A stretch of 64,000 nucleotides of DNA from an archaeon (GCA_029258825.1 JAPDKA010000008.1:39548-103547); one strand, 5' to 3'. Shown: positions 25,349-43,306, counted from the stretch's first letter. The notes: a model not told the origin generated them from the letters alone. Program-made: numbers and translations.

Positions 25349-26245
25349 ATGCCAAAATACAACCTAGATAAACTCGTTGATTATATCAAAGCATGCAAGC
25401 GTAAGGGTATTTCTGTTGAAACTGCAAAACAAGAACTGCTTAAAGCTGGTTGGCCTGTAAGCATTGTTAATGAAGCAATCTCACGCTATAATGCTGAAAT
25501 GCTAAAGCAAATTAAGATGCCCAAACTGCCGAAATCGAGCAGAACACTAAAAGCCATACAAGCAAAACCTGAGAGCTTTAAAGCGAGAGTGAAACTTTAT
25601 GTCGATACTTACTTTAAACCTATACAAACATTCAGCATGCAGAACAAAGCAGGAAATACGCGCGAGATTTTTATCAATATATGGCACAGTTATTGGCCAT
25701 TAGCAATTGTTATTTTCCTTTCATTCATTTTTCTTAATGCTCTAATCAACTCAATGGAAGCAATGTTCAAACAAAATATTCCAATAGCCTTACCCAATTG
25801 GCTAATATCTGTTGTTATGTTTTCAAGCGTCATCGGTCTTTTTGTAGCTACTGTTGTTAGTTTTTTCTTTTTTCAAGCATTGCTTTTTGGTGCAGCAAAA
25901 ATGCTGAAAGGAAAATCAAGTTTTGTTAATCAATGCTATCTTGCAAGCTTAACCATGCCTTTCTCATCTTTTGTTGAAGCTGCAACAATGTTTGTAACAT
26001 TATTGATAGCTTTACTGCCGTTCGGTGCCTTTTTTGCTTTGTTCTTTTTTGAAATAGTTGGCGGTATTATTTTTAATGCACTTTATCTTTACTTGATTGT
26101 TCTTAATGTGATGTACATCAAGGAAGCGCATGAATTTAGCTGGGGTAAAGCAATAGGCACATTCCTTATATTGCTAGGCTTTGTCGCATTGATTGTTATT
26201 TTGGTCGTTGCAATCTTTCTTGGGATAGCAATTAAGACAGCTTAA
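25349..26245 (+). CDS. multi-pass membrane protein with a soluble helical N-domain (Yip1-like topology is a guess)
   Basis: About 110 aa soluble N-terminus, then about 5 hydrophobic helices. No enzymatic motif. Confidence 0.55.
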   Translation: MPKYNLDKLVDYIKACKRKGISVETAKQELLKAGWPVSIVNEAISRYNAEMLKQIKMPKLPKSSRTLKAIQAKPESFKARVKLYVDTYFKPIQTFSMQNKAGNTREIFINIWHSYWPLAIVIFLSFIFLNALINSMEAMFKQNIPIALPNWLISVVMFSSVIGLFVATVVSFFFFQALLFGAAKMLKGKSSFVNQCYLASLTMPFSSFVEAATMFVTLLIALLPFGAFFALFFFEIVGGIIFNALYLYLIVLNVMYIKEAHEFSWGKAIGTFLILLGFVALIVILVVAIFLGIAIKTA

Positions 26246-26298
26246 TTTATCTTTAAATTGACAAAAAACTTATATAGCTAGTGTGAAGTAAAAATAAC

Positions 26299-28788
26299 AT
26301 GAAAAAAGAGGTATCAGCAGTGTTAGTTATTTTGTTGTGTGTTTTACTTTGCGTCTTTGTTAACGCACAGTCTGATGCTTATACATGGTTAAAGCAGCAG
26401 GTTTATACAGGAAACTTGAACACAGAACAGCTTAGTTATGCTTTACTTGCACTTTCTAACGATAATATTGCTACAATGATTGTTAATATGCTTTATGGCA
26501 AAAGCTATAACATGCAATGTTTTGCAACTGACACAGCAAGCAGTGAACAAGCATGTAATGCTTACGATACAGCTATTGCAGCATTTGCTTTAAGTAAAGC
26601 TGGAAAAAGCATTACAGATATTCTTGATTGGTTGAAAGCACATAAACATGTAGTGCAAGTTGATGCTTGGTATGTACAAGTAATTACTGATAATGCAAAA
26701 ACATGTACTTTACGTTATTATGATGGTGGTCAACTTAAGGAAGTTGCTTTGAGCATTACAGAGCAAGGAATACAGTTAAGCAATGATAATTGCGTTTCTG
26801 TTCCAGATAATTTTCCTTTTTGGCTTGAAATTGAACAAAATTGCTTTGATAAAGAATTTGTGTTGCAGTGTGATAACACTATTAAACTTATCCCTGCTTT
26901 TAAGCTAGCGAATCAGTTAATTGCCGTATCTACTGTTTATGGTGTTGGCCAAGCTGTCAGTTTTAAACAAGATGTGTATTGTATTGCAAATGCAAATAGC
27001 GATTGCGATTATGTTGCTAGTGCTTTGTATTATTACTTAACGCACGATTCAAGCGTGTTGCCGTATTTAATGCTTTATGCAAGTAAGGCAAAAGAACAAG
27101 GCATTTTTGCAGACGCATGGCTTTATTTTGTTACATCACAAGAATCGTTTAAACAATCAATGGAGAAATACAAAACAATTTTGCCTGGAGATAAAGCTTA
27201 CTATGCATTAAGCGATATCTACTTTGATACCTGTCTTGCTGGTTTGGCATTGAGCGAAAATGCAGATAGTACTACTGATATTCAGGCATATTTTGAGGAT
27301 TATCTTGGCGATAATGGTATTAATGGTGATGTTATTGTAACAGCACTTGCTTTGTATGTGTTTTGGCCTTCTTATGGTGTAGCATGTAGTGTTGTTGGTG
27401 GTCAATGCAAGCAAGAGTGTAGCAGTGGTGAAGTGCAGACGCAGCATTACTGTAGTGAAGGTGTTTGCTGTAAACCTACTGTATGTAATCCTGATTGGTG
27501 TAAAGCGTCCTGTAGCGATAATGAACAGCAAGTTCAACTTTTTTGCGAGTCTGGTGTTTGCTGTAAGCCTGTAACAAGTAATCCTTCAGAGTGTGATTCT
27601 GCTGGCGGTTCTTGTGTTAGTTCTTGCTTGGATGATGAAATCCAAATAGATAAGCAATGTGATTCTGGTTTAGTGTGTTGCAAGAAAAAATCTCGTGCTA
27701 CTTGTGATGAACTGCATGGCCATATATGTGGTAGTAATGAAGAATGTGTTGTTAACAACCAAATAGTTTCATTTATTACAAGCATTGATTCAGATAGATG
27801 CTGTCTTGGTACTTGTCAAGAACGCAAAGAATCATGCGATGCTTTAGGTGGTGTAATTTGTAGCAGTGGTTATTGTTTAAACAATCAATGGCTTAATGCA
27901 ATAGAGCAGTATTGCTGTAGACGGTCGTATTGTGCTGATACTGCAACATGCAGTCAGCTTGGTGGTGAAATTTGCGACAGCGATGAGATTTGTAAAGATG
28001 GTTTGATGGTTGCAACAAGTGATACGCAGTATTGTTGTGTTCAAGGTGGAAAGTGTGTTAAACGTTCCTGTGATGGTATAGGCGAATTGTGTGAGCCTGG
28101 CGAAATTTGCGACGGCACTACAGTCGAAACAGCAGAAGGTTTGTGTTGTGTCGGCGAATGTGTTGGCGATTGTGCTGATATGGGTGGACAGATTTGTGAT
28201 GAAGGCTATAGATGCAGCACAGATTTTGTTGAAGCTGCCGACACTTCGTTTTGTTGTTTAGGTGAGTGCAAAAAAACAAACATAGCTTTGATTTTGATTG
28301 TGTTATTTGGCATTCTTGCTGTTTCTGGTTTGTTGTTCATGCTAAAGCATAAATATAAGCCAGGCAAAAAGCGAAAGCAATTGCCAATGCAACCATCAAT
28401 GCAAACGCAACAAGCCAGATTAATGCCACAAATGCGACAACCAAAATTAATGCGACAGGCAATGCAACCAATACCCCAAACAATGCCACAAGCAATGCAA
28501 ATACCACAAATGAGACAAACACAAATGCAACCACGAGTAATGCAAAAAGCAATGCAAGTAAAGCGACAGCCATTACCACAAAGACCAATAATGCCATCAA
28601 TGCCAAAAATGCCAAAACCATCTCAAATCATTGAAGCGAAAGCAAAACAATTACCAAAGTTGGAGCAGCAGACAAAACAAAATTTAATACAAGTTAAAAA
28701 AATAGAGAAAAAGAAAGAGAAAAAAAGCAAAGTTAGCGAGATTGATAAAAATATAGAAAAAATTAAAAAGTATTTGTCTAATTTATAA
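26299..28788 (+). CDS. secreted cysteine-rich surface protein (829 aa) with a C-terminal TM anchor and an M/P/Q-rich tail
   Basis: Sec signal ending VNA|QS. Then an alpha-helical repeat-like N-domain, 3 modules ending GVCCKP, 5 modules of CDxLGGxIC...CC.G.C, a TM (IALILIVLFGILAVSGLLFML), and a low-complexity tail. Confidence 0.85.
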   Translation: MKKEVSAVLVILLCVLLCVFVNAQSDAYTWLKQQVYTGNLNTEQLSYALLALSNDNIATMIVNMLYGKSYNMQCFATDTASSEQACNAYDTAIAAFALSKAGKSITDILDWLKAHKHVVQVDAWYVQVITDNAKTCTLRYYDGGQLKEVALSITEQGIQLSNDNCVSVPDNFPFWLEIEQNCFDKEFVLQCDNTIKLIPAFKLANQLIAVSTVYGVGQAVSFKQDVYCIANANSDCDYVASALYYYLTHDSSVLPYLMLYASKAKEQGIFADAWLYFVTSQESFKQSMEKYKTILPGDKAYYALSDIYFDTCLAGLALSENADSTTDIQAYFEDYLGDNGINGDVIVTALALYVFWPSYGVACSVVGGQCKQECSSGEVQTQHYCSEGVCCKPTVCNPDWCKASCSDNEQQVQLFCESGVCCKPVTSNPSECDSAGGSCVSSCLDDEIQIDKQCDSGLVCCKKKSRATCDELHGHICGSNEECVVNNQIVSFITSIDSDRCCLGTCQERKESCDALGGVICSSGYCLNNQWLNAIEQYCCRRSYCADTATCSQLGGEICDSDEICKDGLMVATSDTQYCCVQGGKCVKRSCDGIGELCEPGEICDGTTVETAEGLCCVGECVGDCADMGGQICDEGYRCSTDFVEAADTSFCCLGECKKTNIALILIVLFGILAVSGLLFMLKHKYKPGKKRKQLPMQPSMQTQQARLMPQMRQPKLMRQAMQPIPQTMPQAMQIPQMRQTQMQPRVMQKAMQVKRQPLPQRPIMPSMPKMPKPSQIIEAKAKQLPKLEQQTKQNLIQVKKIEKKKEKKSKVSEIDKNIEKIKKYLSNL
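28378..28626 (+). repeat. coding low-complexity imperfect repeat (M/P/Q-rich: MQP, MPQ, MRQ units)
   Basis: Translation QLPMQPSMQTQQARLMPQMRQPKLMRQAMQPIPQTMPQAMQIPQMRQTQMQPRVMQKAMQ...MPSMPKMPKPSQ. At DNA level aatgc[ac]a-type units recur. Confidence 0.8.
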
Positions 28789-28791
28789 TTG

Positions 28792-29553
28792 ATGCTAAAA
28801 AGAGGTCAGATTTCAATTTTTGTTATAATCGCATTGATATTGGTATTTTCAACCATATTGTTTTTTCTGCTTAGACCTGTCATTTTTCGTTCAAAATTTG
28901 AGTTACCAGATTTAAATGGATATATGAAACAATGTATAGAATTAAAGTTTGGGCCAATAATTGATAATGTTAGTGCTAAAGGAGGATATCTAGAACCTCA
29001 GCTAGCAGTGATATATCATCAAATACCTAGGGCATACCTATGCTATACAACAGAGCCTTATGCAGCTTGTGAGCAGTTAGTGCCTATGTTAAAAGACCAT
29101 ATAGAATCTGAATTGAAGAGTGTTATGCAAGATAAAGCAATTGTCCAACAATGTTTGGAAGAATTTAAAGAACAAATCTCGCGTGGTGGATATGTTTTAA
29201 CATATTCTAGACCAGAAATAGATGTTAAGATAGTTCCAGAAAATGTTTTAGTATCAATTAATACTTCTGTAGTAATTAGTAGAGAAGACGAAATTACAAA
29301 GTTTAATCATTTTGATATTCAATTTAATCATCCTCTTTATGATTATATAATCATAGCAAAAAAAATAATAAGCGAATCTATAATTAATCATTATTTTGAT
29401 CCTGCATCATATATGATAATGCATCAAAGTGTTATAATTGACGAATCTTCTGTTAGTGATGGTAGTAGAGTCTATGTGATAAGAAAGAGAAACTCTAATA
29501 AGGAATTCGGCTTTGCTATAAGAAATTATGTTTTTCCAGGAGGTGTAGTGTAA
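28792..29553 (+). CDS. pilin-like protein (class-III signal peptide, RG|QISIF)
   Basis: MLKRGQISIFVIIALILVFSTILFFLL has a charged residue, G, Q at +1 and a hydrophobic helix, as in EppA/PibD substrates. The ATG lies 3 nt after the upstream stop. It ends ...FGFAIRNY, like its paralog 33188-34039. Confidence 0.7.
   Translation: MLKRGQISIFVIIALILVFSTILFFLLRPVIFRSKFELPDLNGYMKQCIELKFGPIIDNVSAKGGYLEPQLAVIYHQIPRAYLCYTTEPYAACEQLVPMLKDHIESELKSVMQDKAIVQQCLEEFKEQISRGGYVLTYSRPEIDVKIVPENVLVSINTSVVISREDEITKFNHFDIQFNHPLYDYIIIAKKIISESIINHYFDPASYMIMHQSVIIDESSVSDGSRVYVIRKRNSNKEFGFAIRNYVFPGGVV
29539..29545 (+). promoter_or_regulatory. Shine-Dalgarno-like GGAGGTG for the internal operon gene 29555
   Basis: Sits 9 nt upstream of the ATG at 29555 and is complementary to the CCUCC end of archaeal 16S rRNA. 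Confidence 0.5.
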
Positions 29554-29554
29554 A

Positions 29555-32500
29555 ATGAGAAATCGTTATACCATGCTAGAGAAAGGAAGGATTTTCGAAG
29601 CATTATTCATTATTATAGTTATATTGGTGTCAATTTTTGCTTCAGCATACTTTTTTAACCAATATGTTTCTGTTGTTCGTGCTGAAGAAGTGGGTTGTTG
29701 TGTTCAAAAAGAAGGTTTAAGTGGTTATTATTGTCAAGATCAAACTGATAGCGAAGGTTGTAGCTCTTATGTTGGGAGGTCTTGCTCTGAAGTCTATGAG
29801 TGTCAGCTTGGTTGTTGTATAGATTCTGAAGGTTTACCTACACCAAACACCCATAGGGGTGACTGTACTGGTGTTTTTATAGAGGAGGACCCTTATTGTG
29901 AAACTGTTCAGCTTGGTTGTTGTGTTTATGGTGTTAATGCTGAGTTAACGACAGAGCAGAGATGTGTAGATATACTACACGGGAGCTGGCATGGAGATAT
30001 TACAGATCAGATAGAATGCTTTAGCCAAATTGAAGGTGCAGATCGTGGTACTTGTAGATTGGCTACGAGGTGTGCGTACGTTACTCAGGAAGAATGCGAA
30101 GAGCTTGGTGGTTTTGATTTTGTTCCTGGATTAAAACCTATAGATGATCCTAACTGTAACTGCGAGATTGTAGATGATAAAGGAAAATGTATAGACGGTC
30201 TTCAACATGTTTACGAATACGATACTTGTGGCAATGTTTATCCTGACAGGATTCGTAATGAGTGCAATTCGGATGAGTGGTGTATAGATGATGAATGTCA
30301 GTCTACAGACTGTACTAATGTATATGATAACTGGAACGAGTCTAACCAGGGCTTTACAGGGAAGCCAGGTAACCATGGTAAAACCCGTCATCACGGAGAG
30401 TCATGGTGTGTTTATGATATTCCTGATAGAACTTTTTACTACACTCCTATTGGCGGGCTTGACCCTGTTGGAAGTGAACATTGGTTGGCTAAATGTTTGT
30501 ATGGTAAGGTTTATGTTTCGCCACCACCACAGCCATATAGACAGTACATATGTTTTGAAACACTTATCGATGCTGATACAGGGGAAATAGCAAAAGAAGA
30601 TGGTACTCCTATTATGAGGGATAAGAGATATAAAAACAACAACTATAGGTCATTTGCGTTTTGGGTGCTCAACCCGTGGAGAGAGTGCTATTTAATCCAG
30701 GATGAAGAGCAATGCAGAGAACATCCTTGGTGTTACTGGGTTACTGACTTGAATTACAGTGCAGGATTTTTGACAGAGGATAAAGACAATGATATAGCAA
30801 AATGGTTCGGGATTAAGGATGAAAGTTTGGAAAAAATAACAGGTTTTCCAGGATCTGAAATACTTGGCATAGACGAAATCGCAGCTCCAGTTAGATGCTT
30901 GCCTAGGGTTGCACCAGGTTTTGACGAGAACGGTAAAGTTCTATGCGATCTCGCCACAGTACAGTGTACTCTTGAAGATCGATTGATAGGCGATACAAAC
31001 CCTGAATGTGATGATGCTCCTTGGATTGAGTTAATGGCACAAAGATGTAGGGCAATGGGTGATTGCGGTCCTAACATGAATTGGTTAGGAAAGGTTAGCG
31101 ATCCTGCATGGGAGAACAGTATCCTTGCAGCTGAAATCAATCCAGAAAAAGACGATGCAGGCAACATAATTGGAAAGGATATAGAAGGATTGTGGGATCT
31201 AAAGGAGGGAGATGATTTTAAAAAGATTCAAGCTTCTGCTGGAGAGAGGGGCTGGGGGAGAAAGATTGCTACTGGTGTAGGAAAGTTTCTTCTTGTCCCT
31301 GCAGGTTGGCTTGCTGGTGTGGCTAGTGTGGTGGTAGAGGCTGTTGCCATAGCTAACATCCCGTTTGCTGCTTTTAATAAAGGTTTTCTTTGGAAATCTT
31401 TATCTTTTTCTACAACTGGAGCTATTGTGGCAGTCGCTGGACTTATAGTTTATCTCGTTGGTTGTTACTTGACTAATCATGGTTGGCGTGTTGTCGGAGA
31501 AACGTTGAAATCTATAGGTGTAGGTATGATGGCTGGAGGGTTGGCAGTTGCTTTGGGTGCAAGTGGCCCAGTAGGTTGGGCTGTAGGAATAGCAGCTGCT
31601 GTGATTTATGCTGTATTTTTTGCTACTTGGGATGTTGACCATGTTGTTGTTAAATGTGCTGGTTGGGTTCCTCCTTATAGTGGTGAAGACTGTAGCAAAT
31701 GTAATGACGATCCATATAGGCCTTGCTCAAAGTACAGATGCGAATCTTTGGGTGCAGCATGCAAGTTTGTTAATGAGGTTGGGGGCATACCATTAGCTGA
31801 TAGTGATGCTGTGTGCGTATCAGAAGAAAACGATGGCCAGCCTCCTTACATTGTAGAGATATCTGCAGAAGATGATGTGGGAAATAGTCTCGATGTGAGT
31901 CCAAGCACAACATCAGGACCAACAACAATTAATGTTCAAGCTAGTGATGGCGGAGACTTAGATCCTGGTGTTCCTGTGATTCTTCATATGAAATTTAACG
32001 AAAGAGTTCTTTGTAAATGGGACATAACAGAAAAGGACAGCATGGAGGATATGGCTTTTTCTGTTGATGGTAGGTTTAGCAATGAGAAAACATTGCTACT
32101 TGGTACAAGTCCGTTAAGGGTAAACCAACAAGTTTTCCTAAGATGTGCAGATGTTTATGGAAACGAAAATAGTGCAAGTTATATCATAAAATTTGATGTA
32201 AAGGATGTTTCATACGATATATTTCCACCAAGAATATTAGCTACCAACCCTCCAGATGGTGCTTATATAGGTTTTGATAAAAACAAAATAGATGTGTTAG
32301 TTTATCTCAACAGGCCTGCAGAGTGTAAATGGGCAAATTCAGATATGTCTTATGATGATATGACAACTGAAAAGTGCACTACAGAGCCTGCCATGGCAGG
32401 ATTAATATGTAACCTTACAAATGTAGATGTTAGTAGTGAAATTAACAATATCTACATAAGATGTAAATCTTCAGATGCAGGAGAAACGGCACCAACTTCA

Positions 32501-33061
32501 TTGAAAGTTATAACTTTAAGAAAAGCGCCACCAATACAGATTGTTAACATAGAACCTAATGACACGACGGTTTATCTTGGTCCCGACAATATGGCAGTAG
32601 AGTTAACTGTTCATACAGCTGGAGGTATTGATAATACCGGTACAAGCGTTTGTTATTATTTAACCGATTCAGACAAGGTTCCTTTTGATACGACGGGAAC
32701 TAACTTACATAAAACCCTTGTTCCTGTTGAGGAAGGAAAAAATGACATTACTGTGTCTTGCTGCTTATATAGCTCTTGCGTTGATGCTCATGCGGTATTT
32801 AATGTTCAACTAGATACTGTGCCACCTAAAATAAAAGCTATTTACAAGGAAGATAATAAATTAATTGTTAAAACAGACGAAATTGCGGAGTGCAAATACA
32901 GTACAGAAAGTTGTGAAGCAGTAGCAAACGGCGAAACAATGGTTACAAGTTTGGGTTTAGTTCATTCTATCTCTTTAAGTACAGGAATGGATACTTATTA
33001 TATTCAATGTAAAGACAAATATAACAATCAAGGAGAATGTGTTTCTGTTAAGGTGGTGTAA
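29555..33061 (+). CDS. giant cysteine-rich membrane/surface protein (1168 aa)
   Basis: N-terminal hydrophobic helix after EKG|RIFEA. Then GCC-type Cys modules, a Gly/Ala-rich block of about 4 helices (about nt 31265-31625), a Cys knot CSKC...C...CESLGAACKF, and 4 C-terminal modules of the EC[KR][WY]...Y[IV][KR]C type. Confidence 0.85.
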   Translation: MRNRYTMLEKGRIFEALFIIIVILVSIFASAYFFNQYVSVVRAEEVGCCVQKEGLSGYYCQDQTDSEGCSSYVGRSCSEVYECQLGCCIDSEGLPTPNTHRGDCTGVFIEEDPYCETVQLGCCVYGVNAELTTEQRCVDILHGSWHGDITDQIECFSQIEGADRGTCRLATRCAYVTQEECEELGGFDFVPGLKPIDDPNCNCEIVDDKGKCIDGLQHVYEYDTCGNVYPDRIRNECNSDEWCIDDECQSTDCTNVYDNWNESNQGFTGKPGNHGKTRHHGESWCVYDIPDRTFYYTPIGGLDPVGSEHWLAKCLYGKVYVSPPPQPYRQYICFETLIDADTGEIAKEDGTPIMRDKRYKNNNYRSFAFWVLNPWRECYLIQDEEQCREHPWCYWVTDLNYSAGFLTEDKDNDIAKWFGIKDESLEKITGFPGSEILGIDEIAAPVRCLPRVAPGFDENGKVLCDLATVQCTLEDRLIGDTNPECDDAPWIELMAQRCRAMGDCGPNMNWLGKVSDPAWENSILAAEINPEKDDAGNIIGKDIEGLWDLKEGDDFKKIQASAGERGWGRKIATGVGKFLLVPAGWLAGVASVVVEAVAIANIPFAAFNKGFLWKSLSFSTTGAIVAVAGLIVYLVGCYLTNHGWRVVGETLKSIGVGMMAGGLAVALGASGPVGWAVGIAAAVIYAVFFATWDVDHVVVKCAGWVPPYSGEDCSKCNDDPYRPCSKYRCESLGAACKFVNEVGGIPLADSDAVCVSEENDGQPPYIVEISAEDDVGNSLDVSPSTTSGPTTINVQASDGGDLDPGVPVILHMKFNERVLCKWDITEKDSMEDMAFSVDGRFSNEKTLLLGTSPLRVNQQVFLRCADVYGNENSASYIIKFDVKDVSYDIFPPRILATNPPDGAYIGFDKNKIDVLVYLNRPAECKWANSDMSYDDMTTEKCTTEPAMAGLICNLTNVDVSSEINNIYIRCKSSDAGETAPTSLKVITLRKAPPIQIVNIEPNDTTVYLGPDNMAVELTVHTAGGIDNTGTSVCYYLTDSDKVPFDTTGTNLHKTLVPVEEGKNDITVSCCLYSSCVDAHAVFNVQLDTVPPKIKAIYKEDNKLIVKTDEIAECKYSTESCEAVANGETMVTSLGLVHSISLSTGMDTYYIQCKDKYNNQGECVSVKVV

Positions 33062-35996: not shown

Positions 35997-36005
35997 ACAG
36001 TTAAA

Positions 36006-38717
36006 ATGAAAAAAACTTTAAAAACAAAAAATATGAAAATAGCAATGCCAAATTTAAAAAGAATCGTTTTATCGATTATTTTAGTTGCATTAGTCTTTTG
36101 GTTGTGCTGTAGTGATGTATATGCTGGGGGAGGTGGTGGAGGGTCCTCTTCTACCCAGGGTGCCACGGATACCGGGACTTGTCCTTGCAAGATTGACTAT
36201 GTTGGTATAACCCCTATTTCAAATGGAGGATCTCTTAAAGTAATTGTTAATGTTAGAGTTTCTTCTGTTAATAGCCAGCAGTGTACAAATCCTAAATTGA
36301 ATATTACAGGGACATTTACTGTTGACGGAAAGACATTTACAAGTAAAAAAATAGGACAACAAATAACAGTAGATCAAAACTCTGAAATTACTCTAAATGG
36401 GTGGGCAGACGGAAGAGCATCCTTTGACCCTTCATCTTATAAGGGGAAAACTATAAATGGTAAAGTGACAGTAAGGTTTTCCAATCCTCTACAGTGTGGT
36501 AATGTGAAGGAGGAAAGACCTTTCGTTTTTACCATTAGCGATGATGGTAAAATCACATTAACTCCTATGTTGTTACCAAATCCGGAAATATTAAAGGAAA
36601 ATCCTGAATCCGGTTTATTTACTGTTGGGAAGCTATTTACCGGTATAGGTTACATTTGTTGTTTTGGCGCTACTGGTTATGGTCCTTTTACTTCATGGAT
36701 AAAGCAATTAAAGGAAAACCTTAAGAATCGAGGCGAGAAAGCAACAGAAGAACAATTAATTAATAGGTTATTGAACCTAAACTGTGACAACGAAAATGTT
36801 TTAAAAGCTAATGGATGGAGCAAGGAAGATTGTTTGACAGCTAAAGAATATGCTGAAAGAGCAAAAGAATATAAAGAAAAATATGAAAAAAGATGTGGTC
36901 CAAAAGAAAAATGGTATAGTGGATTGAAGGGTAGTGTTCATATGATAACATGCATTATTTCTATCGGGTACTCAGTTTCAGAAGGAATACTTCTAGCATC
37001 GCACTCAGGCTCATGTCACCCAGAACAACCGTTGCCGGGAACAGAGCATTGTGAAGCATGCAATGCTTATGGTCTTTGCTTGAAGGAGCGATGTGAAGTG
37101 CTCGGCCACTGTAAGTTTGTGCCTTTCGAAGACAAAACAGGCGGCTTATGCTTGCCAGATGTTTGCGAACCTACAGCAGTGCCTGTAATTGAAGACATAT
37201 CAACACGCTGGTTTGTTGACAGAGCAAGGGAAATTACTGACGATCTAGATATAAGTACTAGTTCAAAAGCAGGCGGTGTACAGGTTGTTGTTAGTTATGA
37301 TGGCACTGATGTTGATCCTGAAGGAGCACTACCTTTCGGTGTGTCAGATGTTGAAATAACGTTAAAGCTTAACCAGGGTGCAAGGTGTAGATATGCTATT
37401 GATCAGCCAGGCCTCAATTTCAGCGAAATGCCTTATGAATTTGATAATGCTTATCTTTATCCAAAAGAGCAGACAGCACGCATTGATTTAACAAGCCTAA
37501 CGCCGGGCATGAACCATACAATATACATAAAGTGTCAAGGTATTTGCGGACAGGCGCACGAAGCAACGTTTGACTGGAATTATGTTACATTCACAAAATC
37601 GAACAAGCCTGACGAGTTGCCTCCTGAAGTCATGTACGTTGTTCCTGATGGCTACAGACAGTACATAAGCAGTACTGCTAAAAAACAAACAATCAAGTTT
37701 TATTTTGATGAAAGTCTTGATGAATGTAGAATTTCAACCATAGCAAACAACTTAACCGAGGAGTGGGGTGAAATGAACTCAGAGCAATCTCCTCCAGAAT
37801 GCGTAACTCAATTTACTTGCACAAACAACCAACCTTGCTATGTTCGAACACCAGAAGGTTATGTCACAGAAAGCGAGAGACACGATTGCGGAATGTGCGA
37901 AGTTACAGTTAAGCTTACTCCTGAATGCAAAGACAAGGTTTACACTGTGATAGACTGGGATAACCTTACAAGTATGCTTGAAAGTGCGTCTGAAACAAAC
38001 GAGACAATAGCAAGAATGCTTGAACGCTTTAGCTATACTGAGAGAATGCAGCAGCTGGGCCTAACAGGACAAAGCAAGATTGTACAGTTAATGCTCAAAT
38101 GTGAAGACACTCATTACAACAGAATGCAAGAAGCTTACGCATACATGATAAGCACTTACCCACCATACAACATGTCTATTGTGTTGCCTGAGAATGGTTA
38201 TGACACTTTTGATAGACAAATCTTGATTAATGTGACCACAACAAGAGCTGCAGAATGCAGATACAGCTTGAATGAACAAAAAATCTGGGAAGAAATGACA
38301 CCAATTAGTGAGGGCTTCGATGTTGTGCATGTTGGCATGACAGAATGGCTAGAACCTGGCGACTATACATTGTATGTTAAATGTCGCGATATAGGCGGCC
38401 TTGAAGTTGGCGATAGCGTGCAATTCAAAATAAAACCTGACAACACACCACCAACCATTATAAGAATGTTTGCAAGAAGTAACAATCTTGTTATTGAAAC
38501 AGATGAACAATCAACATGCTACTTCAATATTGATGATGAAGTTGGTTGCAACTTTAATGTTGATGATGTTGAAAGCTTTAGCACAGTGAATGGTTATACG
38601 CATATCGCACCACTTAACGATGATTGGACATATTATGTTAAGTGCAAAGACAGGTTTGATAATATGCCAGCTGGATGTACTGCAGTGATTAGAGCTGCTC
38701 AATTGCCGCGTGGTTAA
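36006..38717 (+). CDS. large surface protein (903 aa), paralogous to the C-half of 29555-33061
   Basis: Signal/anchor then a Gly6-Ser3 linker. Two hydrophobic segments, the knot CEAC...C...CEVLGHCKF, four EC[RK]Y...Y[IV]KC modules, and a DNTPPTI...TDEQSTC terminal module matching DTVPPKI...TDEIAEC. Confidence 0.85.
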   Translation: MKKTLKTKNMKIAMPNLKRIVLSIILVALVFWLCCSDVYAGGGGGGSSSTQGATDTGTCPCKIDYVGITPISNGGSLKVIVNVRVSSVNSQQCTNPKLNITGTFTVDGKTFTSKKIGQQITVDQNSEITLNGWADGRASFDPSSYKGKTINGKVTVRFSNPLQCGNVKEERPFVFTISDDGKITLTPMLLPNPEILKENPESGLFTVGKLFTGIGYICCFGATGYGPFTSWIKQLKENLKNRGEKATEEQLINRLLNLNCDNENVLKANGWSKEDCLTAKEYAERAKEYKEKYEKRCGPKEKWYSGLKGSVHMITCIISIGYSVSEGILLASHSGSCHPEQPLPGTEHCEACNAYGLCLKERCEVLGHCKFVPFEDKTGGLCLPDVCEPTAVPVIEDISTRWFVDRAREITDDLDISTSSKAGGVQVVVSYDGTDVDPEGALPFGVSDVEITLKLNQGARCRYAIDQPGLNFSEMPYEFDNAYLYPKEQTARIDLTSLTPGMNHTIYIKCQGICGQAHEATFDWNYVTFTKSNKPDELPPEVMYVVPDGYRQYISSTAKKQTIKFYFDESLDECRISTIANNLTEEWGEMNSEQSPPECVTQFTCTNNQPCYVRTPEGYVTESERHDCGMCEVTVKLTPECKDKVYTVIDWDNLTSMLESASETNETIARMLERFSYTERMQQLGLTGQSKIVQLMLKCEDTHYNRMQEAYAYMISTYPPYNMSIVLPENGYDTFDRQILINVTTTRAAECRYSLNEQKIWEEMTPISEGFDVVHVGMTEWLEPGDYTLYVKCRDIGGLEVGDSVQFKIKPDNTPPTIIRMFARSNNLVIETDEQSTCYFNIDDEVGCNFNVDDVESFSTVNGYTHIAPLNDDWTYYVKCKDRFDNMPAGCTAVIRAAQLPRG

Positions 38718-38762: not shown

Positions 38763-38785
38763 TTATAATTTAGATTATTATAATT

Positions 38786-40165
38786 ATGATTACGAAATTC
38801 ATAAATAGGGAAACTGAGCTTAATGCTTTAGAAAGGAGATATAAAGAGAAAGGCTTTGAGTTTATTCCTATTTATGGCAGACGTAGAGTTGGTAAGACTG
38901 AGTTAATATTACAGTTCATAAAAAATAAAAAAGCGATCTACTTTCTTGCTACTTCTGGTTCTAAAAAAGAAAATATAACTAGATTTAAGCAAGCAGCAAG
39001 TCATATAATAGATCTTTCCTTAGTTAGGGATGATTGGGAAAGCATATTTGAATACATTAAGGATAAGGTTAAAGATAGATTAGTCATAGTAATAGATGAA
39101 TTTCCTTATTTAGTTGAAACTCAGAAAGGCCTTTCATCAATATTCCAAAGGATAATTGATACAATCTTAAAAGACACTAATATTTTTCTTATTCTCTGCG
39201 GGTCTAGCTTGAGCATGATGTATAAAGAAGTATTATCATATAAAGCCCCTCTTTACGGAAGAAGAACAGGTCAAATTTATTTAGATGCTTTAAAATTTAA
39301 AGATGTGATAAAATTTTTTCCAAACAAAAATCTGGAAGAAATTATAAAGATATACTCTATTTGTGGAGGTATCCCTGCTTATCTTAAAGAGTTTGTTGGA
39401 AATAAAAACGTATTTTCATTAATCAAAGAAAAAATACTTGAAAAAGATGCCGTTTTAAGAGAAGAGCCTGTGTTTTTATTAAGAATGGAATTTAGAGATC
39501 CAAAGACATACTCTTCTATACTTACAGCGATATCATTAGGTAACAGAACTTTAGGTAAAATAATTAATTATTGTGGTTTTCCAAATAAAACTGGTATTAT
39601 GCCTTATCTACAAAATTTGGAATATTTAGAATATGTAAAGAGAGAAGTTCCCATCACAGAAACTCTAAGATCTAAGAAAGGATTATATTTTATAAAGGAT
39701 AATTTTTTTGATTTTTGGTTTAAGTTTGTAAGACCAAATCTAAGCTTACTAGAACAGGATGTTAATTCTGTTATTGAAATAATAAAAGAAAATTTTGAAA
39801 ATCATGTAAGTTTTATATTTGAAAATGTTTGTAAGGAAATGATGTTTTATTTAAGGCCTATTGATTTTACAAAAATTGGTAGATGGTGGCATAAAGATAA
39901 TGAAATCGATATAGTTGCAATTAATGAGAAAACAAAAGAAATATTGTTTGCTGAATGCAAATGGCAAAACAAGGTGAATGCAGAAAAAATTGTTAAGAAA
40001 CTCAGCGAAAAGAGCAAATTTGTTAAATGGCATAATGAAAAGCGTAAGGAAAGTTTTGCAATTTTTGCAAAATCTTTTAGCAAACGCATTAAGGAATGGC
40101 AAGGCAAGCCTGTTTATTGTTTTGATTTGAAGAATATTGAAAAAATTTTAAAAAAGAAAAAATAA
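38786..40165 (+). CDS. archaeal ATPase (Arch_ATPase + DUF234-type), paralog 3
   Basis: FINRETEL...YGRRRVGKT and VIVIDEFP. The last roughly 75 aa are almost identical to paralog 1. Confidence 0.85.
   Translation: MITKFINRETELNALERRYKEKGFEFIPIYGRRRVGKTELILQFIKNKKAIYFLATSGSKKENITRFKQAASHIIDLSLVRDDWESIFEYIKDKVKDRLVIVIDEFPYLVETQKGLSSIFQRIIDTILKDTNIFLILCGSSLSMMYKEVLSYKAPLYGRRTGQIYLDALKFKDVIKFFPNKNLEEIIKIYSICGGIPAYLKEFVGNKNVFSLIKEKILEKDAVLREEPVFLLRMEFRDPKTYSSILTAISLGNRTLGKIINYCGFPNKTGIMPYLQNLEYLEYVKREVPITETLRSKKGLYFIKDNFFDFWFKFVRPNLSLLEQDVNSVIEIIKENFENHVSFIFENVCKEMMFYLRPIDFTKIGRWWHKDNEIDIVAINEKTKEILFAECKWQNKVNAEKIVKKLSEKSKFVKWHNEKRKESFAIFAKSFSKRIKEWQGKPVYCFDLKNIEKILKKKK
39914..40131 (+). repeat. 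218-nt near-identical direct repeat, copy 2
   Basis: See 23568-23785. The perfect 126-nt core is 39947-40072. Confidence 0.9.
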
Positions 40166-40189
40166 AACCAAAGATAAAACAAAATAAAA

Positions 40190-40705
40190 ATGGTAAAACC
40201 AAAGAAGAAAGCACAGATATTCGGCATGCCTTTCACGTTTTTGTTTGCTTTAATACTAATTGCCGTGTTTTTGTTTACAGCAATCTGGGCGATCAGACAT
40301 TTTTTGCATACAACAGAGTACACAAAACTGATGACAAGCATAAATGATTTAAGAACACAAGTACAAACATTATGGCAGCAACGGGCAGGCAGAGTAACAG
40401 TAACATTGCTTTTTCCGAAAAGCTTTGAAAAAATTTGTTTTGCCGATCCTAATGATAAATCTGGCTGGGCTCAAGAATCAGATTTAAGACAAGACTACAA
40501 TTGGGTTAACAATGTAAAAGCAAACTTGTTTTTACTGCCTCGCAAGGCAGCGCTTGATTTTGGTTTGAAAGGTTACCTGTTCATTGGTTGTGGTAATGTT
40601 GACTGTCTTGACTTTAACAATCCAACTTGCATAACTATTAAGAATGGCAAAGTTAGGTTAAGGCTGACAATGCAGGATGATAAAGTATGGGTTGAAGAAG
40701 CTTAA
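40190..40705 (+). CDS. pilin-like protein (KKA|QIFGMPF)
   Basis: MVKPKKKAQIFGMPFTFLFALILIAVFLF. Confidence 0.65.
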   Translation: MVKPKKKAQIFGMPFTFLFALILIAVFLFTAIWAIRHFLHTTEYTKLMTSINDLRTQVQTLWQQRAGRVTVTLLFPKSFEKICFADPNDKSGWAQESDLRQDYNWVNNVKANLFLLPRKAALDFGLKGYLFIGCGNVDCLDFNNPTCITIKNGKVRLRLTMQDDKVWVEEA

Positions 40706-40783
40706 ACATTTTTGCTTTTTATTGTTTTTTGTTGGTTTGTTGTTTTTCGTTAAATTAATAAATATGTGGATAATGCTATTTAC

Positions 40784-41239
40784 ATGGATGAAAAAAGTAA
40801 AAAAGAGGTGATACAAAAAAATGTTGAGATGCTTATCAGTGACGATTTCTTTAATGCTTTATGGAGAGAATCTGTAGGAGGTAATGCTGGTGAAAACTGC
40901 GCCTGTGTTAATGCAATAGTTGACAAGCGTACAGGTGAAATAGTTGATTTTTCGAACCAACCTATAAAAGATTGGTTAAATACAAAAGCAAAGAGAAAAG
41001 GTATAAAAGGAGAGGCAGAAAATTATGATAAAGCAAGTATAATTGTTGATCTTTCTTACACTAGTAAGGAAAAATTATTTAGCACGAACATTGAAGATTG
41101 TTATCCAAAGATTACCAAGCTTGTTGGTGCTAAAAATTATGAAAGCTTGAAACGTGCTGTTGAAAAGGCGAATGAAATATACAGAAGCAAAATTGGAGGG
41201 CAAGTTAAAAAACTAAGAGAAGAAGCTTATAAAAAATAA
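40784..41239 (+). CDS. soluble hypothetical protein inside the pilin-like gene run
   Basis: ORF with no signal or TM. I prefer the ATG at 40784 over the GTG at 40766 given in the track. Confidence 0.45.
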   Translation: MDEKSKKEVIQKNVEMLISDDFFNALWRESVGGNAGENCACVNAIVDKRTGEIVDFSNQPIKDWLNTKAKRKGIKGEAENYDKASIIVDLSYTSKEKLFSTNIEDCYPKITKLVGAKNYESLKRAVEKANEIYRSKIGGQVKKLREEAYKK

Positions 41240-41256
41240 AATGACTCTCTAATAGA

Positions 41257-42231
41257 ATGTATAAACAAAAGCAGAAAAACGCACAGATGCCTGCATTTGG
41301 TTGGCTGTTTTCTGTAATCATTGGTGCTTTCATTTTGTTTTTTGCTTTCTTATTTGTGTTTCGTTTTACACATATCGCTGAACAGCAAGAACAAGCAGTA
41401 ACCACAACAAGCCTTGACATCTTGCTAGAGCCGTTTGCAAGCAGCATTGCAACAGGCCAATCAGACATAATAACACTGCCACGCAATTCAAAGCTTGAAA
41501 TTGATTGTTCTTATTCTGATTTTGATTTTGGCAAAAATATTGTTAAATACTCGACTACTGGTCAATTTAGATTCAGCAAAGTAGTGCGGGATAAATACAT
41601 ATTTGCTAGACCAATACAAAAACGCAACATACTTGTTGTAGTGTTGCCTTTTGAAATGCCGTTCCGTATTGCTGATTTAACTTTACTAATTGGTCATGAT
41701 TACTGCTTTGTAGGATTGCCAGAGCGTTATAAAGATTTACTTCAGGAGTTAACTGAAACGAATGCTGATGCCGCAAACATCAGGCTGGAATTTTTTAGCG
41801 ATGTTAATGACTGTAGTGAAGATTCGATAAAAGTTTGTAAAGACAACCTCAATTGTGATGTTTCTTTCACTTGTGCTGATGGTTGTAGTTATGGCACTAT
41901 AAGTTATGGCAATAATGATAAGCAATACTTGTGGTATGGCAACTTGTTGCTTGCTGCTGCATTTTCAGAGCCAGAACTTTATGAATGCAATGCCAACAGG
42001 TTGTTGAAGAGGGCAAAGCTAATTGCTAGCATCTACAAAACCGAAGCATCAATGCTGTCAAGTAAAGGTTGCAGTAGCATATCCGGACTAAGCTCGCAGC
42101 TTGATAGGTATATTACTCAGCTTAATAACATTGATATTAGTGATACCAGCACAAGTAGTTTTGCTTCATTACATGACACAGCCAAAACCATAGACCACAT
42201 TAATGGTTTTGCTTTGTGTAAAATCTACTAG
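41257..42231 (+). CDS. pilin-like protein, 324 aa (KNA|QMPAFGW)
   Basis: MYKQKQKNAQMPAFGWLFSVIIGAFILFFAFLFVF. The body is Cys-containing and looks extracellular. Confidence 0.65.
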   Translation: MYKQKQKNAQMPAFGWLFSVIIGAFILFFAFLFVFRFTHIAEQQEQAVTTTSLDILLEPFASSIATGQSDIITLPRNSKLEIDCSYSDFDFGKNIVKYSTTGQFRFSKVVRDKYIFARPIQKRNILVVVLPFEMPFRIADLTLLIGHDYCFVGLPERYKDLLQELTETNADAANIRLEFFSDVNDCSEDSIKVCKDNLNCDVSFTCADGCSYGTISYGNNDKQYLWYGNLLLAAAFSEPELYECNANRLLKRAKLIASIYKTEASMLSSKGCSSISGLSSQLDRYITQLNNIDISDTSTSSFASLHDTAKTIDHINGFALCKIY

Positions 42232-42234
42232 AAA

Positions 42235-42771
42235 ATGAAAATAAAAATCAAGCATCAAGAAAAAGTACGGAAAGCACAAATTCAAATCCAGGAAATGGCG
42301 TTTGTGCTAGTAGGACTTTTTTTGCTTTTTGCGTTTGCTTTTCTTGGTTTTGCCGCATGGCAAACATCACTCATGAAACAACAAGCAACAAGCTTAAGGC
42401 TAGAAAAAGCAACTGTAATGATAAACAGCTTAATAAGTATGCCAGAACTTGCATGCAGCAAACAATTAGGCTATTGTATCGATGAAGACAAACTTGTTTT
42501 GTTTAAATCCTACATAGATAAGTACGAGCTCTTATTTAAATCTGCCCGAATAAATTACATTGCTGTAAAGCGCATATTTCCGAAAATTGAAGATAGTGTT
42601 GAATGTAATTCAGATAATTATCCAAATTGCAATTTGCATGTGCTTTATAACAAGCAAGACGAAGATACAATAATTCATTCAAGCTTTGCTGTTTTGTGCC
42701 ATTACGATATGTTTACTGGCAATAGATGTGATATTGCTGAAGTTTTAGTTGGCATAAAACCTGAAACATAA
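42235..42771 (+). CDS. pilin-like protein (RKA|QIQIQEMAFVLVG)
   Basis: Basic leader, KAQ, then a hydrophobic helix. Starts 3 nt after the upstream stop. Confidence 0.65.
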   Translation: MKIKIKHQEKVRKAQIQIQEMAFVLVGLFLLFAFAFLGFAAWQTSLMKQQATSLRLEKATVMINSLISMPELACSKQLGYCIDEDKLVLFKSYIDKYELLFKSARINYIAVKRIFPKIEDSVECNSDNYPNCNLHVLYNKQDEDTIIHSSFAVLCHYDMFTGNRCDIAEVLVGIKPET

Positions 42772-42772
42772 A

Positions 42773-43306
42773 ATGAAAATAAAAAATAAAGCAAAAATGG
42801 ATAAATCAAAGCACAAAGCAAAACATACAAGAAAGGCACAGCAAGAAATTTTCGGGTTTGTGATTATCGTGATGCTTATTCTTGTTATAGCTGTTATTTT
42901 CTTTGGCTTAGCATTGCAAAGAGCGATCAACAATCCGACTTATGAACAATACCAGAAAGCCAATGATTTGTTGTTTGTTATGATGCACTACACAACAGAT
43001 TGCAAAAATAAAGAGTTAAGCAGAGTTATTGAATTATGTATTAGCGGTGACACATGTAAAATTGAAGGCAATGAAATTAGTGCATGTGATTATATGCGGG
43101 ATGTATTTTCAGAAATACTTAATGTTACATTAGGCAATGAAACACAATTGCTGAACAGGCCAATACATGGTTATTGGTTTAGGATTAATGATGGTGAACT
43201 GCTAAATATTTCTGCTGGCAACTTATCAGGCAATATTGCAGTTGGCTATTATGTAGTGCCCCTTACAGAAGGTAGCGTAACAGCAGAACTTTGGCTCTAC
43301 TATTAA
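42773..43306 (+). CDS. pilin-like protein (RKA|QQEIFGFVIIV)
   Basis: Basic leader, KAQ, then a hydrophobic helix. Starts 1 nt after the upstream stop. Confidence 0.65.
   Translation: MKIKNKAKMDKSKHKAKHTRKAQQEIFGFVIIVMLILVIAVIFFGLALQRAINNPTYEQYQKANDLLFVMMHYTTDCKNKELSRVIELCISGDTCKIEGNEISACDYMRDVFSEILNVTLGNETQLLNRPIHGYWFRINDGELLNISAGNLSGNIAVGYYVVPLTEGSVTAELWLYY

What the first reader, a model, noticed from the sequence alone, without database searches (positions are those of the whole stretch)
25349..43306. Supercluster of about 18 kb encoding giant Cys-rich surface proteins interleaved with pilin-like proteins: candidate undescribed cell-surface or host-contact apparatus
Fourteen consecutive plus-strand genes are interrupted only by one ATPase paralog. 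They encode a multi-pass membrane protein, four large cysteine-rich secreted or membrane proteins (829, 1168, 651 and 903 aa), six proteins with prepilin-type signals, and one soluble orphan. Many junctions are 0-9 nt between stop and ATG (28788/28792, 29553/29555, 34039/34041, 35996/36006, 42231/42235, 42771/42773), and an internal SD precedes 29555. No protein shows an enzyme motif I can recognise. The combination of a pilin-like set with huge disulfide-rich adhesin-like proteins fits a filament- or contact-based apparatus, plausibly used by an episymbiotic small archaeon to attach to or exchange with a host. The function is inferred from architecture alone.
Basis: partly seen in the sequence, partly recalled or inferred. 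Interest (0 to 1): 0.85.

Follow-up and report, generated by a model that had tools for sequence, protein, structure and literature searches.

The report
Conserved pilin-like surface operon in Nanoarchaeota
This stretch holds an undescribed nine-gene operon, conserved across hundreds of tiny symbiotic archaea (Pacearchaeota and Woesearchaeota), that encodes six pilin-like proteins and giant cysteine-rich membrane proteins, and it is a good candidate for their cell-surface or host-attachment machinery.

Summary
The ORFs, coordinates, tight junctions and cysteine richness are real, but the "supercluster" is composite. The conserved core is nine genes: C-D-E-F-G-I-K-L-M. I found that order, exact or in close variants, in about 30 of 80 related Pacearchaeota, Woesearchaeota and Nanoarchaeota loci. 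Relatives of D occur at 529 or more places in species-representative genomes and form 1,724 clusters at 50% identity.

D (1168 aa) equals F plus G, so the locus carries two paralogous modules, each preceded by a pilin-like gene. B is a looser conserved neighbour. A (Yip1), H and J are insertions specific to this genome, and H is a candidate phage-defence ATPase (PDC-S27), not a pilus motor.

All six small proteins have a basic leader ending in G or A, then Q, then about 20 hydrophobic residues. This motif is conserved across orthologues and resembles EppA-type class III signals.

D models as a cysteine-rich ectodomain with no detectable structural relatives, a helical membrane bundle, a cysteine knot and four to five Ig-like domains. 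No Pfam, NCBIfam, PHROG, PDB or IMG/VR relatives turned up. No pilus ATPase lies within 10 kb in any locus. In relatives, an S-layer-like gene follows M.

My best reading is a surface module related to type IV filaments, assembled by machinery encoded elsewhere. A role in host contact is untested.

The parts
28789..29553 (+). C: prepilin-like protein (254 aa; likely start ATG 28792; MLKRG|QISIFVIIALILVF). It is the partner gene of module 1.
   Evidence: N-terminal motif. The C/E family has 145 members in 78 loci, and 126 of 141 carry [KR][GAS]Q directly before the hydrophobic helix. Q is invariant. A C/E-type gene lies immediately upstream of a D/F-type gene in 108 of 141 cases.
29555..33061 (+). 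D: 1168-aa polytopic membrane protein. It has an N-terminal signal or anchor, a Cys-rich ectodomain (about 47-550), a helical membrane region (about 552-689), a Cys knot (701-736) and 4-5 Ig-like domains (about 740-1168).
   Evidence: AF2 model with pLDDT 76. Foldseek returns only Ig/FN3 tandem hits. Hydropathy. 36 homologues, at least 529 genomic places, and 1,724 clusters at 50% identity. A Shine-Dalgarno-like motif lies upstream.
33188..34039 (+). E: prepilin-like protein (283 aa; ...NTKA|QIAVWVIVAAV). It is a paralogue of C and the partner gene of module 2.
   Evidence: It recovers the same family as C under jackhmmer and aligns with it.
34041..35996 (+). F: 651-aa secreted or membrane Cys-rich protein (8.1% Cys). 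It is the equivalent of the N-terminal ectodomain of D.
   Evidence: BLASTP of D residues 12-204 against F residues 3-194 gives E=9e-15. The alignment places the F cysteines on the D cysteines. The AF2 model is confident only for residues 30-220. There is no PDB fold match.
36006..38717 (+). G: 903-aa membrane protein. It is the equivalent of the membrane region, Cys knot and Ig-like C-terminal half of D, with an extra N-terminal beta-rich domain.
   Evidence: BLASTP of D residues 988-1158 against G residues 707-886 gives E=1.5e-7. The CxxC...C motif is shared. In relatives, F and G are often fused into a second D-like gene.
40190..40705 (+). I: prepilin-like protein (171 aa; MVKPKKKA|QIFGMPFTF).
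   Evidence: Family found in 38 loci, consensus RGQQTMGMPFG. It is related to K over about 85 N-terminal residues (hhalign probability 96.7%).
41257..42231 (+). K: large prepilin-like protein (324 aa, 10 Cys).
   Evidence: Family found in 38 loci, consensus KKG-x-x-ISFAWLFAI. 9 homologues in the large database.
42235..42771 (+). L: prepilin-like protein (178 aa; ...VRKA|QIQIQEMAF).
   Evidence: Family found in 30 loci, consensus K[GA]QMKIQQMAF.
42773..43306 (+). M: prepilin-like protein (177 aa; ...TRKA|QQEIFGFVII).
   Evidence: Family found in 45 loci, consensus K[GA]Q[QE]EIVGF. Its N-terminus is related to those of L and I.
26299..28788 (+). B: 829-aa Sec-signal protein. It has an N-terminal domain of about 340 aa, about eight Cys-rich repeats of 35-40 aa, one TM helix and a low-complexity cytoplasmic tail. 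It is a loosely linked conserved neighbour.
   Evidence: Homologues in 34-36 loci, usually divergent or upstream on the other strand. No family match.
38786..40165 (+). H: ATPase_2 plus DUF234 protein inserted between G and I. It is not part of the conserved operon.
   Evidence: Pfam. PADLOC PDC-S27 at E=4e-52 over the full length. No counterpart in 82 loci. In relatives, G abuts I.
40766..41239 (+). J: 157-aa soluble orphan (GTG start) inserted between I and K. It is not part of the conserved operon.
   Evidence: No homologue in the loci. No family match.
25349..26245 (+). A: Yip1-domain multi-pass membrane protein. It is not part of the conserved operon.
   Evidence: Pfam PF04893, E=4e-8. 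No counterpart in the 82 loci.

Best explanation
The core genes C-D-E-F-G-I-K-L-M encode an operon restricted, as far as sampled, to Nanoarchaeota in the broad sense (Pacearchaeota, Woesearchaeota). It builds an extracytoplasmic, disulfide-stabilised surface complex related to type IV filaments (TFF).

Shown:
- Six proteins carry a conserved class-III-like signal: a basic leader of about 5-22 aa ending in G or A, then Q at +1 (variable in family K), then about 20 hydrophobic residues.
- Two paralogous giant modules (D, and F plus G) are membrane-embedded. Each has a Cys-rich head with no detectable structural relatives and an Ig-like stalk.
- Each module is preceded by its own pilin-like gene.
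- Gene order is conserved across the lineage.
- In relatives, an S-layer-like gene follows the operon.

Inferred:
- A class III signal peptidase encoded elsewhere cleaves the leaders after G or A.
- I-K-L-M form a minor-pilin-like initiation or tip complex of a short fibre or pseudopilus. A TFF ATPase and platform encoded elsewhere drive its assembly.
- C and E couple the D and F+G modules to this structure through their hydrophobic N-terminal helices.
- The Ig-like stalks and Cys-rich heads are displayed at or through the S-layer, where they bind an external partner, plausibly the host envelope.
For: - Conserved class-III-like motif in six families, with Q invariant in C/E.
- The families share only their N-terminal 30-85 residues, as type IV pilins do.
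- EppA substrates in Methanococcus have leaders ending in G with +1 Gln, and their pilin genes lie in loci separate from the ATPase and platform genes (PMC3875500).
- Archaeal T4P loci typically combine at least 5 minor pilins, two large adhesin-like proteins and an S-layer-like protein. Nanoarchaeal TFF ATPases had no identified cognate pilins (PMC4858521).
- Synteny: P-D-P-F-G-I-K-L-M is the commonest pattern.
- D equals F plus G.
- Architecture of the D model and its Ig/FN3 stalk.
- High and conserved Cys content.
- S-layer-like gene downstream in at least 24 loci, with PF05124 matched by 9 of 12 members.
- Pacearchaeota are strongly host-attached, and ultrasmall cells show pili reaching into hosts (PMC7906910).
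Against: - No pilin-like protein matches any Pfam or NCBIfam pilin, archaellin or class-III-signal model.
- They have no match to solved pilins by sequence.
- The +5 Glu of EppA substrates is absent from C, E, I, K and L.
- No TFF ATPase-type Walker A, platform protein or A24 peptidase was seen in the window or within 10 kb of the cluster in 82 loci.
- No small, abundant major-pilin candidate is evident.
- D and G are polytopic membrane proteins, unlike known pilus-tip adhesins.
- The fold of the pilin-like proteins was not modelled.
- There are no expression or localisation data.
Confidence: 0.45

Rival explanations
1. The complex is an envelope scaffold that does not form a filament. The pilin-like N-termini act only as membrane anchors or assembly helices, as in ArlF/ArlG of the archaellum or the Sulfolobus bindosome. 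The nine proteins form a static complex that organises or anchors the S-layer and pseudo-periplasm. On this reading it is a housekeeping envelope structure, not a host-contact device.
For: - An S-layer-like gene lies immediately downstream in at least 24 related loci.
- The operon is very widespread in the lineage and is syntenic with housekeeping genes (PCNA in 53 loci, primase in 40).
- Conservation is fairly uniform along D, without the hypervariable regions expected of a host-specific adhesin.
- There is no ATPase in or near the operon.
- D and G are integral membrane proteins.
Against: - Strict conservation of the G/A-Q junction in five families suggests a processing site, not a mere anchor.
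- N-glycosylation sequon density is not elevated, unlike typical archaeal S-layer components (compare).
- In this genome the S-layer-like gene is not adjacent.
Confidence: 0.3
2. The operon encodes a host-penetrating or membrane-bridging machine. The Cys-rich heads and the membrane bundles of D and F+G, pushed by a pilin-based piston, breach or fuse with the host envelope. This would create the cytoplasmic or nutrient bridge postulated for DPANN episymbionts.
For: - The lineage is obligately host-dependent and strongly attached, with pili-like structures entering hosts (PMC7906910).
- The large ectodomain has no detectable structural relatives and carries conserved polar residues (E282, H309, R329, D503).
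- A multi-helix membrane region is present.
- How nanoarchaeal cells open a channel to the host is an acknowledged unknown.
Against: - There is no structural similarity to fusexin/HAP2 or to any pore former. The best Fsx1 match has E of at least 5 over about 40 columns, and the model used was partly poor.
- The membrane region is the least conserved and lowest-confidence part of D.
- The operon has no energy source.
- There is no experimental evidence of any kind.
Confidence: 0.12
3. The cluster is a mobile-element, viral or DNA-transfer module, such as a provirus envelope gene set or a Ced/T4SS-like conjugation or DNA-uptake apparatus.
For: - A HerA/mad8-like ATPase lies 3.3 kb downstream.
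- Defence-candidate ATPases and a toxin-antitoxin pair flank or interrupt the cluster.
Against: - There are no relatives in IMG/VR and no PHROG hits.
- The HerA-like gene is not linked to the cluster in any of the 82 loci.
- The operon sits in the same chromosomal neighbourhood (primase, PCNA) across the lineage, which indicates vertical inheritance.
- No integrase or att-like repeats were found.
Confidence: 0.03

Closest known systems
Epd pilus / archaeal TFF 'system 1' of Methanococcales, Thermococcales and some DPANN (EppA-dependent pilins; PMC3875500, PMC4858521, bioRxiv 10.64898/2026.04.22.720090)
   Same: - Both have several pilin-like proteins with short basic leaders ending in G/A and Gln at +1.
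- Both mix small and large (modular) pilin-like proteins.
- Both include large accessory surface proteins and an S-layer-like neighbour.
- In both, pilin genes can lie away from the ATPase and platform genes.
   Different: - There is no sequence-family match to DUF361, Pilin_N or Class_IIIsignal models.
- Most of these proteins lack the +5 Glu.
- The locus has no EppA, ATPase or platform gene.
- The large partners are Cys-rich polytopic membrane proteins with an unmatched ectodomain, not DUF2341/PilY-like adhesins.
Bacterial minor-pilin/adhesin operons (fimU-pilVWXY1E of type IVa pili; GspH-I-J-K of type II secretion)
   Same: - Both have four consecutive small-to-medium pilin-like genes, one of them markedly larger (K, 324 aa).
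- Both are encoded with a partner of about 1,100-1,200 aa and sit apart from the motor genes.
   Different: - There is no homology, so this is analogy only.
- D has about five membrane helices and two ectodomains, whereas PilY1 is a soluble tip protein.
- These are archaeal class III signals.
ArlF/ArlG archaellum stator and the Sulfolobus bindosome (pilin-like N-termini used for envelope-anchored, non-pilus assemblies)
   Same: Both use pilin-type N-terminal helices on proteins that may stay cell-associated and interact with the S-layer.
   Different: There is no sequence similarity. Those systems are encoded together with their ATPase and platform genes.
Pacearchaeota/DPANN lineage-specific modules of unannotated membrane or extracellular protein families (Castelle et al. 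2021, PMC8204110)
   Same: Same lineages, same lack of annotation, and the same predicted membrane or extracellular location. The families found here are probably among those counted there.
   Different: That work lists families statistically. It does not describe this operon, its pilin-like signals, the D = F+G relationship or the link to the S-layer gene.

Membership tests
Type IV filament pilin-like proteins (archaeal class III signal peptide proteins) | Short positively charged leader ending in Gly/Ala, followed directly by about 20 hydrophobic residues | tested here: met
   All six window proteins show it. 126 of 141 C/E orthologues, 25 of 36 I, 25 of 30 L and 26 of 29 M carry [KR][GAS]Q at the junction. 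K has [KR]-G followed by a variable +1 residue.
Type IV filament pilin-like proteins (EppA-type substrates) | +1 Gln and +5 Glu (PMC3875500) | tested here: inconclusive
   +1 Gln is conserved in five of six families and invariant in C/E. +5 Glu is absent from C, E, I, K and L. M has Glu at +2/+3.
Type IV filament pilin-like proteins | Match to curated pilin, archaellin or class-III-signal sequence models (Pfam, NCBIfam) or to solved pilins | tested here: not met
   No hits at E<=0.1. 47 C/E members scanned with no pilin family. Profile searches against PDB sequences found nothing relevant.
Type IV filament pilin-like proteins | Fold: N-terminal alpha-1 helix packed on a globular beta-rich domain | not tested
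Type IV filament machinery (TFF system) | Secretion ATPase (ArlI/PilB type), platform protein (ArlJ/PilC/TadC) and A24 prepilin peptidase encoded in the locus | tested here: not met
   None was found among the window ORFs scanned with Pfam. No G.[TS]G[SA]GK[ST]T Walker A motif in any ORF of the 82 loci or in the window proteins scanned (the cluster genes C-I and K-M were not in that set). The motif test is crude.
Type IV filament machinery (TFF system) | The same components encoded elsewhere in the genome | not testable with these tools
   Only 64 kb of a 130-kb contig is available.
Archaeal S-layer protein family (PF05123/PF05124) | Sequence match to S-layer family models | tested here: not met
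   B, D, F and G have no match. A separate protein of about 750 aa downstream of M in relatives does match, in 9 of 12 members, best E=1.3e-15.
Fusexin/HAP2 class II fusogens | Three-domain class II fold of the ectodomain | tested here: inconclusive
   F model against PDB: Fsx1 (7p4l) scores only E>=5 over about 40 columns, but the F model is confident only for residues 30-220. Hits for the D model were swamped by its Ig-like domains.
PilY1-like pilus adhesins (DUF2341 / PilY1 propeller) | Pfam domain match | tested here: not met
   No Pfam hit in B, D, F or G.
Viral structural proteins | Relatives in viral contigs or phage protein families | tested here: not met
   IMG/VR scan: none. PHROGs: none. 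BFVD: only generic FN3/Ig matches.
PADLOC PDC-S27 candidate defence ATPase (applies to H and to the two upstream paralogues) | Full-length match to the PDC-S27 models | tested here: met
   E=4e-52 for H, 1e-41 and 4e-45 for the paralogues, covering nearly the whole profile. Pfam ATPase_2 plus DUF234.

The most novel reading that the evidence does not exclude
The nine-gene operon encodes a previously unrecognised class of archaeal surface machine, derived from type IV filament parts but without a dedicated motor. Pilin-like subunits position two giant disulfide-locked membrane proteins, whose ectodomains match nothing known, so that they bind and possibly open the host envelope. On this reading it is the attachment or bridge apparatus of Pacearchaeota and Woesearchaeota.
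Probability: 0.15. Interest if true: 0.9.

Novelty: new variant of a known kind. Interest (0 to 1): 0.65.

Why it matters
Pacearchaeota and Woesearchaeota are among the most abundant and least understood archaea. They are thought to live attached to hosts, but no molecular attachment or exchange apparatus is known for them. Earlier surveys found nanoarchaeal pilus ATPases without cognate pilins.

This operon supplies:
- six candidate pilins;
- two giant partner proteins, present at 529 or more places in species-representative genomes;
- a fixed genomic address next to the S-layer gene.

That gives concrete targets for metaproteomics, cryo-ET labelling, structure prediction of complexes and heterologous signal-peptidase assays. 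It also defines at least six large protein families that currently have no annotation.

Tried and rejected
- **Family searches:** Pfam, NCBIfam and PHROGs on all cluster proteins gave nothing, apart from Yip1 for A and ATPase_2/DUF234 for H.
- **Sequence searches against solved structures:** I searched PDB sequences with D, C/E and K profiles, with B and G as single sequences, and with a profile of the pilin N-termini alone. Only spurious membrane-helix hits came back.
- **Fold search with D:** Against PDB and BFVD, the Ig-like C-terminal domains dominated the hits, so the N-terminal ectodomain could not be assessed.
- **Fold search with F:** I modelled F separately to isolate that ectodomain. 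The model was poor beyond residue 220 (pLDDT 55) and gave no significant match.
- **Viral origin:** rejected.
- **Conjugation or HerA link:** rejected, because the ATPase is not syntenic with the cluster.
- **H as the pilus assembly ATPase:** rejected. H is an ATPase_2/DUF234, PDC-S27-type protein and is absent from all related loci.
- **Extending the contig:** Looking up edge proteins to search for TFF machinery beyond the window returned only short contigs.
- **Counting membrane helices in D homologues:** my crude hydropathy count was unreliable and I discarded it.
- **Literature:** Searches for a description of this operon found none.

Full report
**Observation**

The window is archaeal. 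It contains an archaeal RNase P RNA, diphthamide and wybutosine enzymes, and a fused PriS-PriL primase and PCNA. GC content is about 34%.

Between 25349 and 43306 there are 13 plus-strand ORFs of at least 150 aa. I label them:
- A, 298 aa
- B, 829 aa
- C, 254 aa
- D, 1168 aa
- E, 283 aa
- F, 651 aa
- G, 903 aa
- H, 459 aa
- I, 171 aa
- J, 157 aa
- K, 324 aa
- L, 178 aa
- M, 177 aa

A GGAGGTG motif precedes the ATG of D. B, D, F and G contain 4.1-8.1% Cys, against 1.65% in the rest of the window.

**Composition of the cluster**

A is a Yip1-domain membrane protein. H carries ATPase_2 plus DUF234, like the two genes upstream at 22359-25289. All three match the PADLOC defence-candidate family PDC-S27 over their full length (E from 1e-41 to 4e-52). 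B-G and I-M match nothing in Pfam, NCBIfam or PHROGs.

Internal BLASTP shows that the N-terminal part of D matches F (E=9e-15) and its C-terminal part matches G (E=1.5e-7). The cysteines of F and G align onto those of D. C and E recover the same family. The locus therefore holds two paralogous modules, C-D and E-F-G, followed by four further pilin-like genes.

**Conservation**

- D has 36 relatives in the word-indexed protein database. All are hypothetical proteins, mostly labelled Pacearchaeota.
- In the exhaustive search of 1.84 billion representatives, D has 1,724 relatives with E<=1e-3 and 773 with E<=1e-30, mostly about 1,200 aa long.
- A scan of GTDB species-representative genomes found at least 529 places that encode a relative. 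The best 80 are all Pacearchaeota, Woesearchaeota or Nanoarchaeota MAGs.

I ran iterative searches of every ORF in 82 loci.
- The commonest full gene order is P-D-P-F-G-I-K-L-M, where P is a C/E-type gene. There are 13 exact cases and about 17 close variants, including ones in which F and G are fused into a second D-like gene.
- A C/E-type gene lies immediately upstream of a D/F-type gene in 108 of 141 cases.
- A, H and J have no counterpart anywhere. In relatives, G abuts I and I abuts K, so H and J are insertions.
- B homologues occur in 34-36 loci, usually upstream on the opposite strand.
- Primase (40 loci) and PCNA (53 loci) are conserved upstream neighbours. That argues for vertical inheritance at a fixed chromosomal site.
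- Downstream of M, at least 24 loci carry a small wHTH gene and then a protein of about 750 aa. In 9 of 12 tested members that protein matches the S-layer family PF05124 (best E=1.3e-15). The gene is not in this window.

**The pilin-like proteins**

In the window the N-termini read:
- C: MLKRG|QISIFVII
- E: ...NTKA|QIAVWVIV
- I: ...KKKA|QIFGMPF
- K: ...QKNA|QMPAFGWLF
- L: ...VRKA|QIQIQEMAF
- M: ...TRKA|QQEIFGFVII

Each is followed by about 20 hydrophobic residues.

Across orthologues the junction is conserved.
- [KR][GAS]Q occurs in 126 of 141 C/E members.
- It occurs in 25 of 36 I members, 25 of 30 L members and 26 of 29 M members.
- K keeps [KR]-G with a variable +1 residue.
- Q is the only invariant residue in the N-terminal alignment.

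Profile-profile comparison shows that the families share only their N-terminal 30-85 residues, which is typical of type IV pilins.

The pattern matches the published description of EppA substrates in Methanococcus: a leader of 5-13 aa ending in Gly, and +1 Gln. The +5 Glu of those substrates is missing from most of these proteins (PMC3875500).

No curated pilin model and no solved pilin matches them, and I could not model their fold. Calling them prepilin-like is therefore well supported by the motif, but it is not a demonstrated family membership.

**The giant proteins**

AlphaFold2 of D with 37 aligned sequences gave mean pLDDT 76. The model contains:
- an N-terminal helix;
- a beta-rich, Cys-rich ectodomain (about 47-550, mostly pLDDT 75-90);
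- a low-confidence helical region (552-689) that coincides with four or five hydrophobic segments;
- a small Cys knot (701-736, with invariant cysteines);
- four to five Ig-like sandwiches (about 740-1168, pLDDT about 85-95).

Foldseek against PDB and BFVD returned only generic Ig/FN3 tandems.

To isolate the head domain I modelled F. Only residues 30-220 were confident, and there was no significant PDB match. The best E-value was 2, and archaeal fusexin Fsx1 scored E>=5 over about 40 columns.

Conservation along D is fairly even, and the membrane region is the least conserved part. Sequon density is not elevated. The proteins have no sizeable cytoplasmic domains.

**What is missing**

None of the window ORFs I scanned is an A24 peptidase, a secretion ATPase or a platform protein. 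No ORF in the 82 loci (10 kb either side) has the Walker A motif typical of TFF ATPases. Attempts to extend beyond the window failed. The HerA/mad8-like ATPase at 46647-47957 is not syntenic with the cluster elsewhere.

**Interpretation**

The conserved core is an extracytoplasmic, disulfide-rich complex built from six prepilin-like proteins and two giant membrane modules.

I favour (0.45) a surface module related to type IV filaments.
- I-K-L-M act like minor pilins.
- C and E couple the D and F+G modules to them.
- The signal peptidase, ATPase and platform are encoded elsewhere.
- Methanococcus pilin genes are scattered in the same way.
- Archaeal T4P loci commonly combine minor pilins, two large adhesin-like proteins and S-layer-like genes.
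- The same survey noted nanoarchaeal TFF ATPases without identified pilins. This operon could fill that gap.

The main rival (0.30) is a static S-layer or pseudo-periplasm scaffold that uses pilin-type helices only as anchors. The adjacent S-layer gene, the housekeeping-like distribution and the absence of a motor all favour it.

A host-breaching or bridging role (0.12) is attractive, because Pacearchaeota attach strongly and pili enter hosts. It has no direct support.

A mobile-element or viral origin is essentially excluded.

**Novelty**

Literature searches found only statistical mentions of unannotated Pacearchaeota-specific membrane or extracellular families. None describes this operon.

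I class it as a new variant of a known kind: TFF-type pilin clusters, here with unprecedented partner proteins and no linked motor. Interest is 0.65. The operon is widespread, unannotated and relevant to the open question of how DPANN cells attach to hosts. Its function is still inferred from architecture, and the organisms are uncultivated.

Noticed in passing
window 22359-23819, 23892-25289, 38786-40165: Three paralogous ATPase_2 plus DUF234 genes match the PADLOC defence-candidate family PDC-S27 over their full length. The 3' 257 nt of the first and third copies are 92% identical, which suggests recent gene conversion. The third copy is inserted into the conserved operon between G and I.
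   Followed up: partly
window 10086-15700 (minus strand): This is a four-gene block. It holds a MoxR-like AAA protein (478 aa, weak AAA_3 hit) and two tandem paralogues (399 and 382 aa). The paralogues have near-identical N- and C-termini and internal repeats of about 20 aa ('NQVIG[VI]xI[KE]G...'). They flank a 605-aa protein with no Pfam or PADLOC match. The block lies between the primase and tRNA-Ser and is absent from related loci. It may be an inserted island or an uncharacterised system.
   Followed up: partly
L002, L054, L047, L023 and about 20 other loci, directly downstream of the M homologue: A protein of about 750 aa lies here. It has the N-terminal '...LGAT..AAA.YP.PFV' and C-terminal 'NLIVVGG...LVAG' motifs and matches PF05124 (S-layer-like family). 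It is preceded by a small HVO_A0114-type wHTH gene on the opposite strand. It is probably the S-layer protein of these Nanoarchaeota. It is missing from this window.
   Followed up: partly
window 4049-4552 (minus strand); L084 12050-12970: A YkuD-type L,D-transpeptidase domain protein lies in the window, and an M23 peptidase lies just beyond it. Both are enzymes that act on bacterial peptidoglycan, yet they are encoded by an archaeon. This fits the published idea that some Pacearchaeota interact with bacterial cell walls.
   Followed up: no
window 48098-49576 (plus strand): A membrane-anchored 492-aa protein has a weak DsbA-like thioredoxin hit at its C-terminus (motif CPFG) and, by eye, an FKBP/SlyD-like segment before it. 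It may be an extracytoplasmic folding factor relevant to the many disulfide-rich proteins nearby. It is not syntenic with the operon in other loci.
   Followed up: partly
window 43337-44151 (minus strand): A nucleotidyltransferase (MNT) and HepT-like RNase toxin-antitoxin pair lies immediately after the operon, where relatives carry the wHTH and S-layer genes.
   Followed up: no
window 46647-47957 (minus strand): A HerA/DUF87-type ATPase of 436 aa has its best PADLOC match to mad8 (E=5e-23). It is not linked to the operon in related loci.
   Followed up: partly
window 7915-10039 (minus strand): A fused PriS-PriL primase gene (446 aa) overlaps by 17 nt a Cas4/PD-(D/E)XK nuclease gene (266 aa). 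The primase and PCNA (18577-19317) are conserved neighbours of the operon across the lineage. In this genome they are separated from it by about 9 kb of extra genes.
   Followed up: partly
window 52615-54298 (minus strand): A 7TM protein resembling the N-terminal region of histidine kinases (HisKA_7TM, no kinase domain in the ORF) lies next to a DUF7090/DUF835-like protein. It may be a small sensory module.
   Followed up: no
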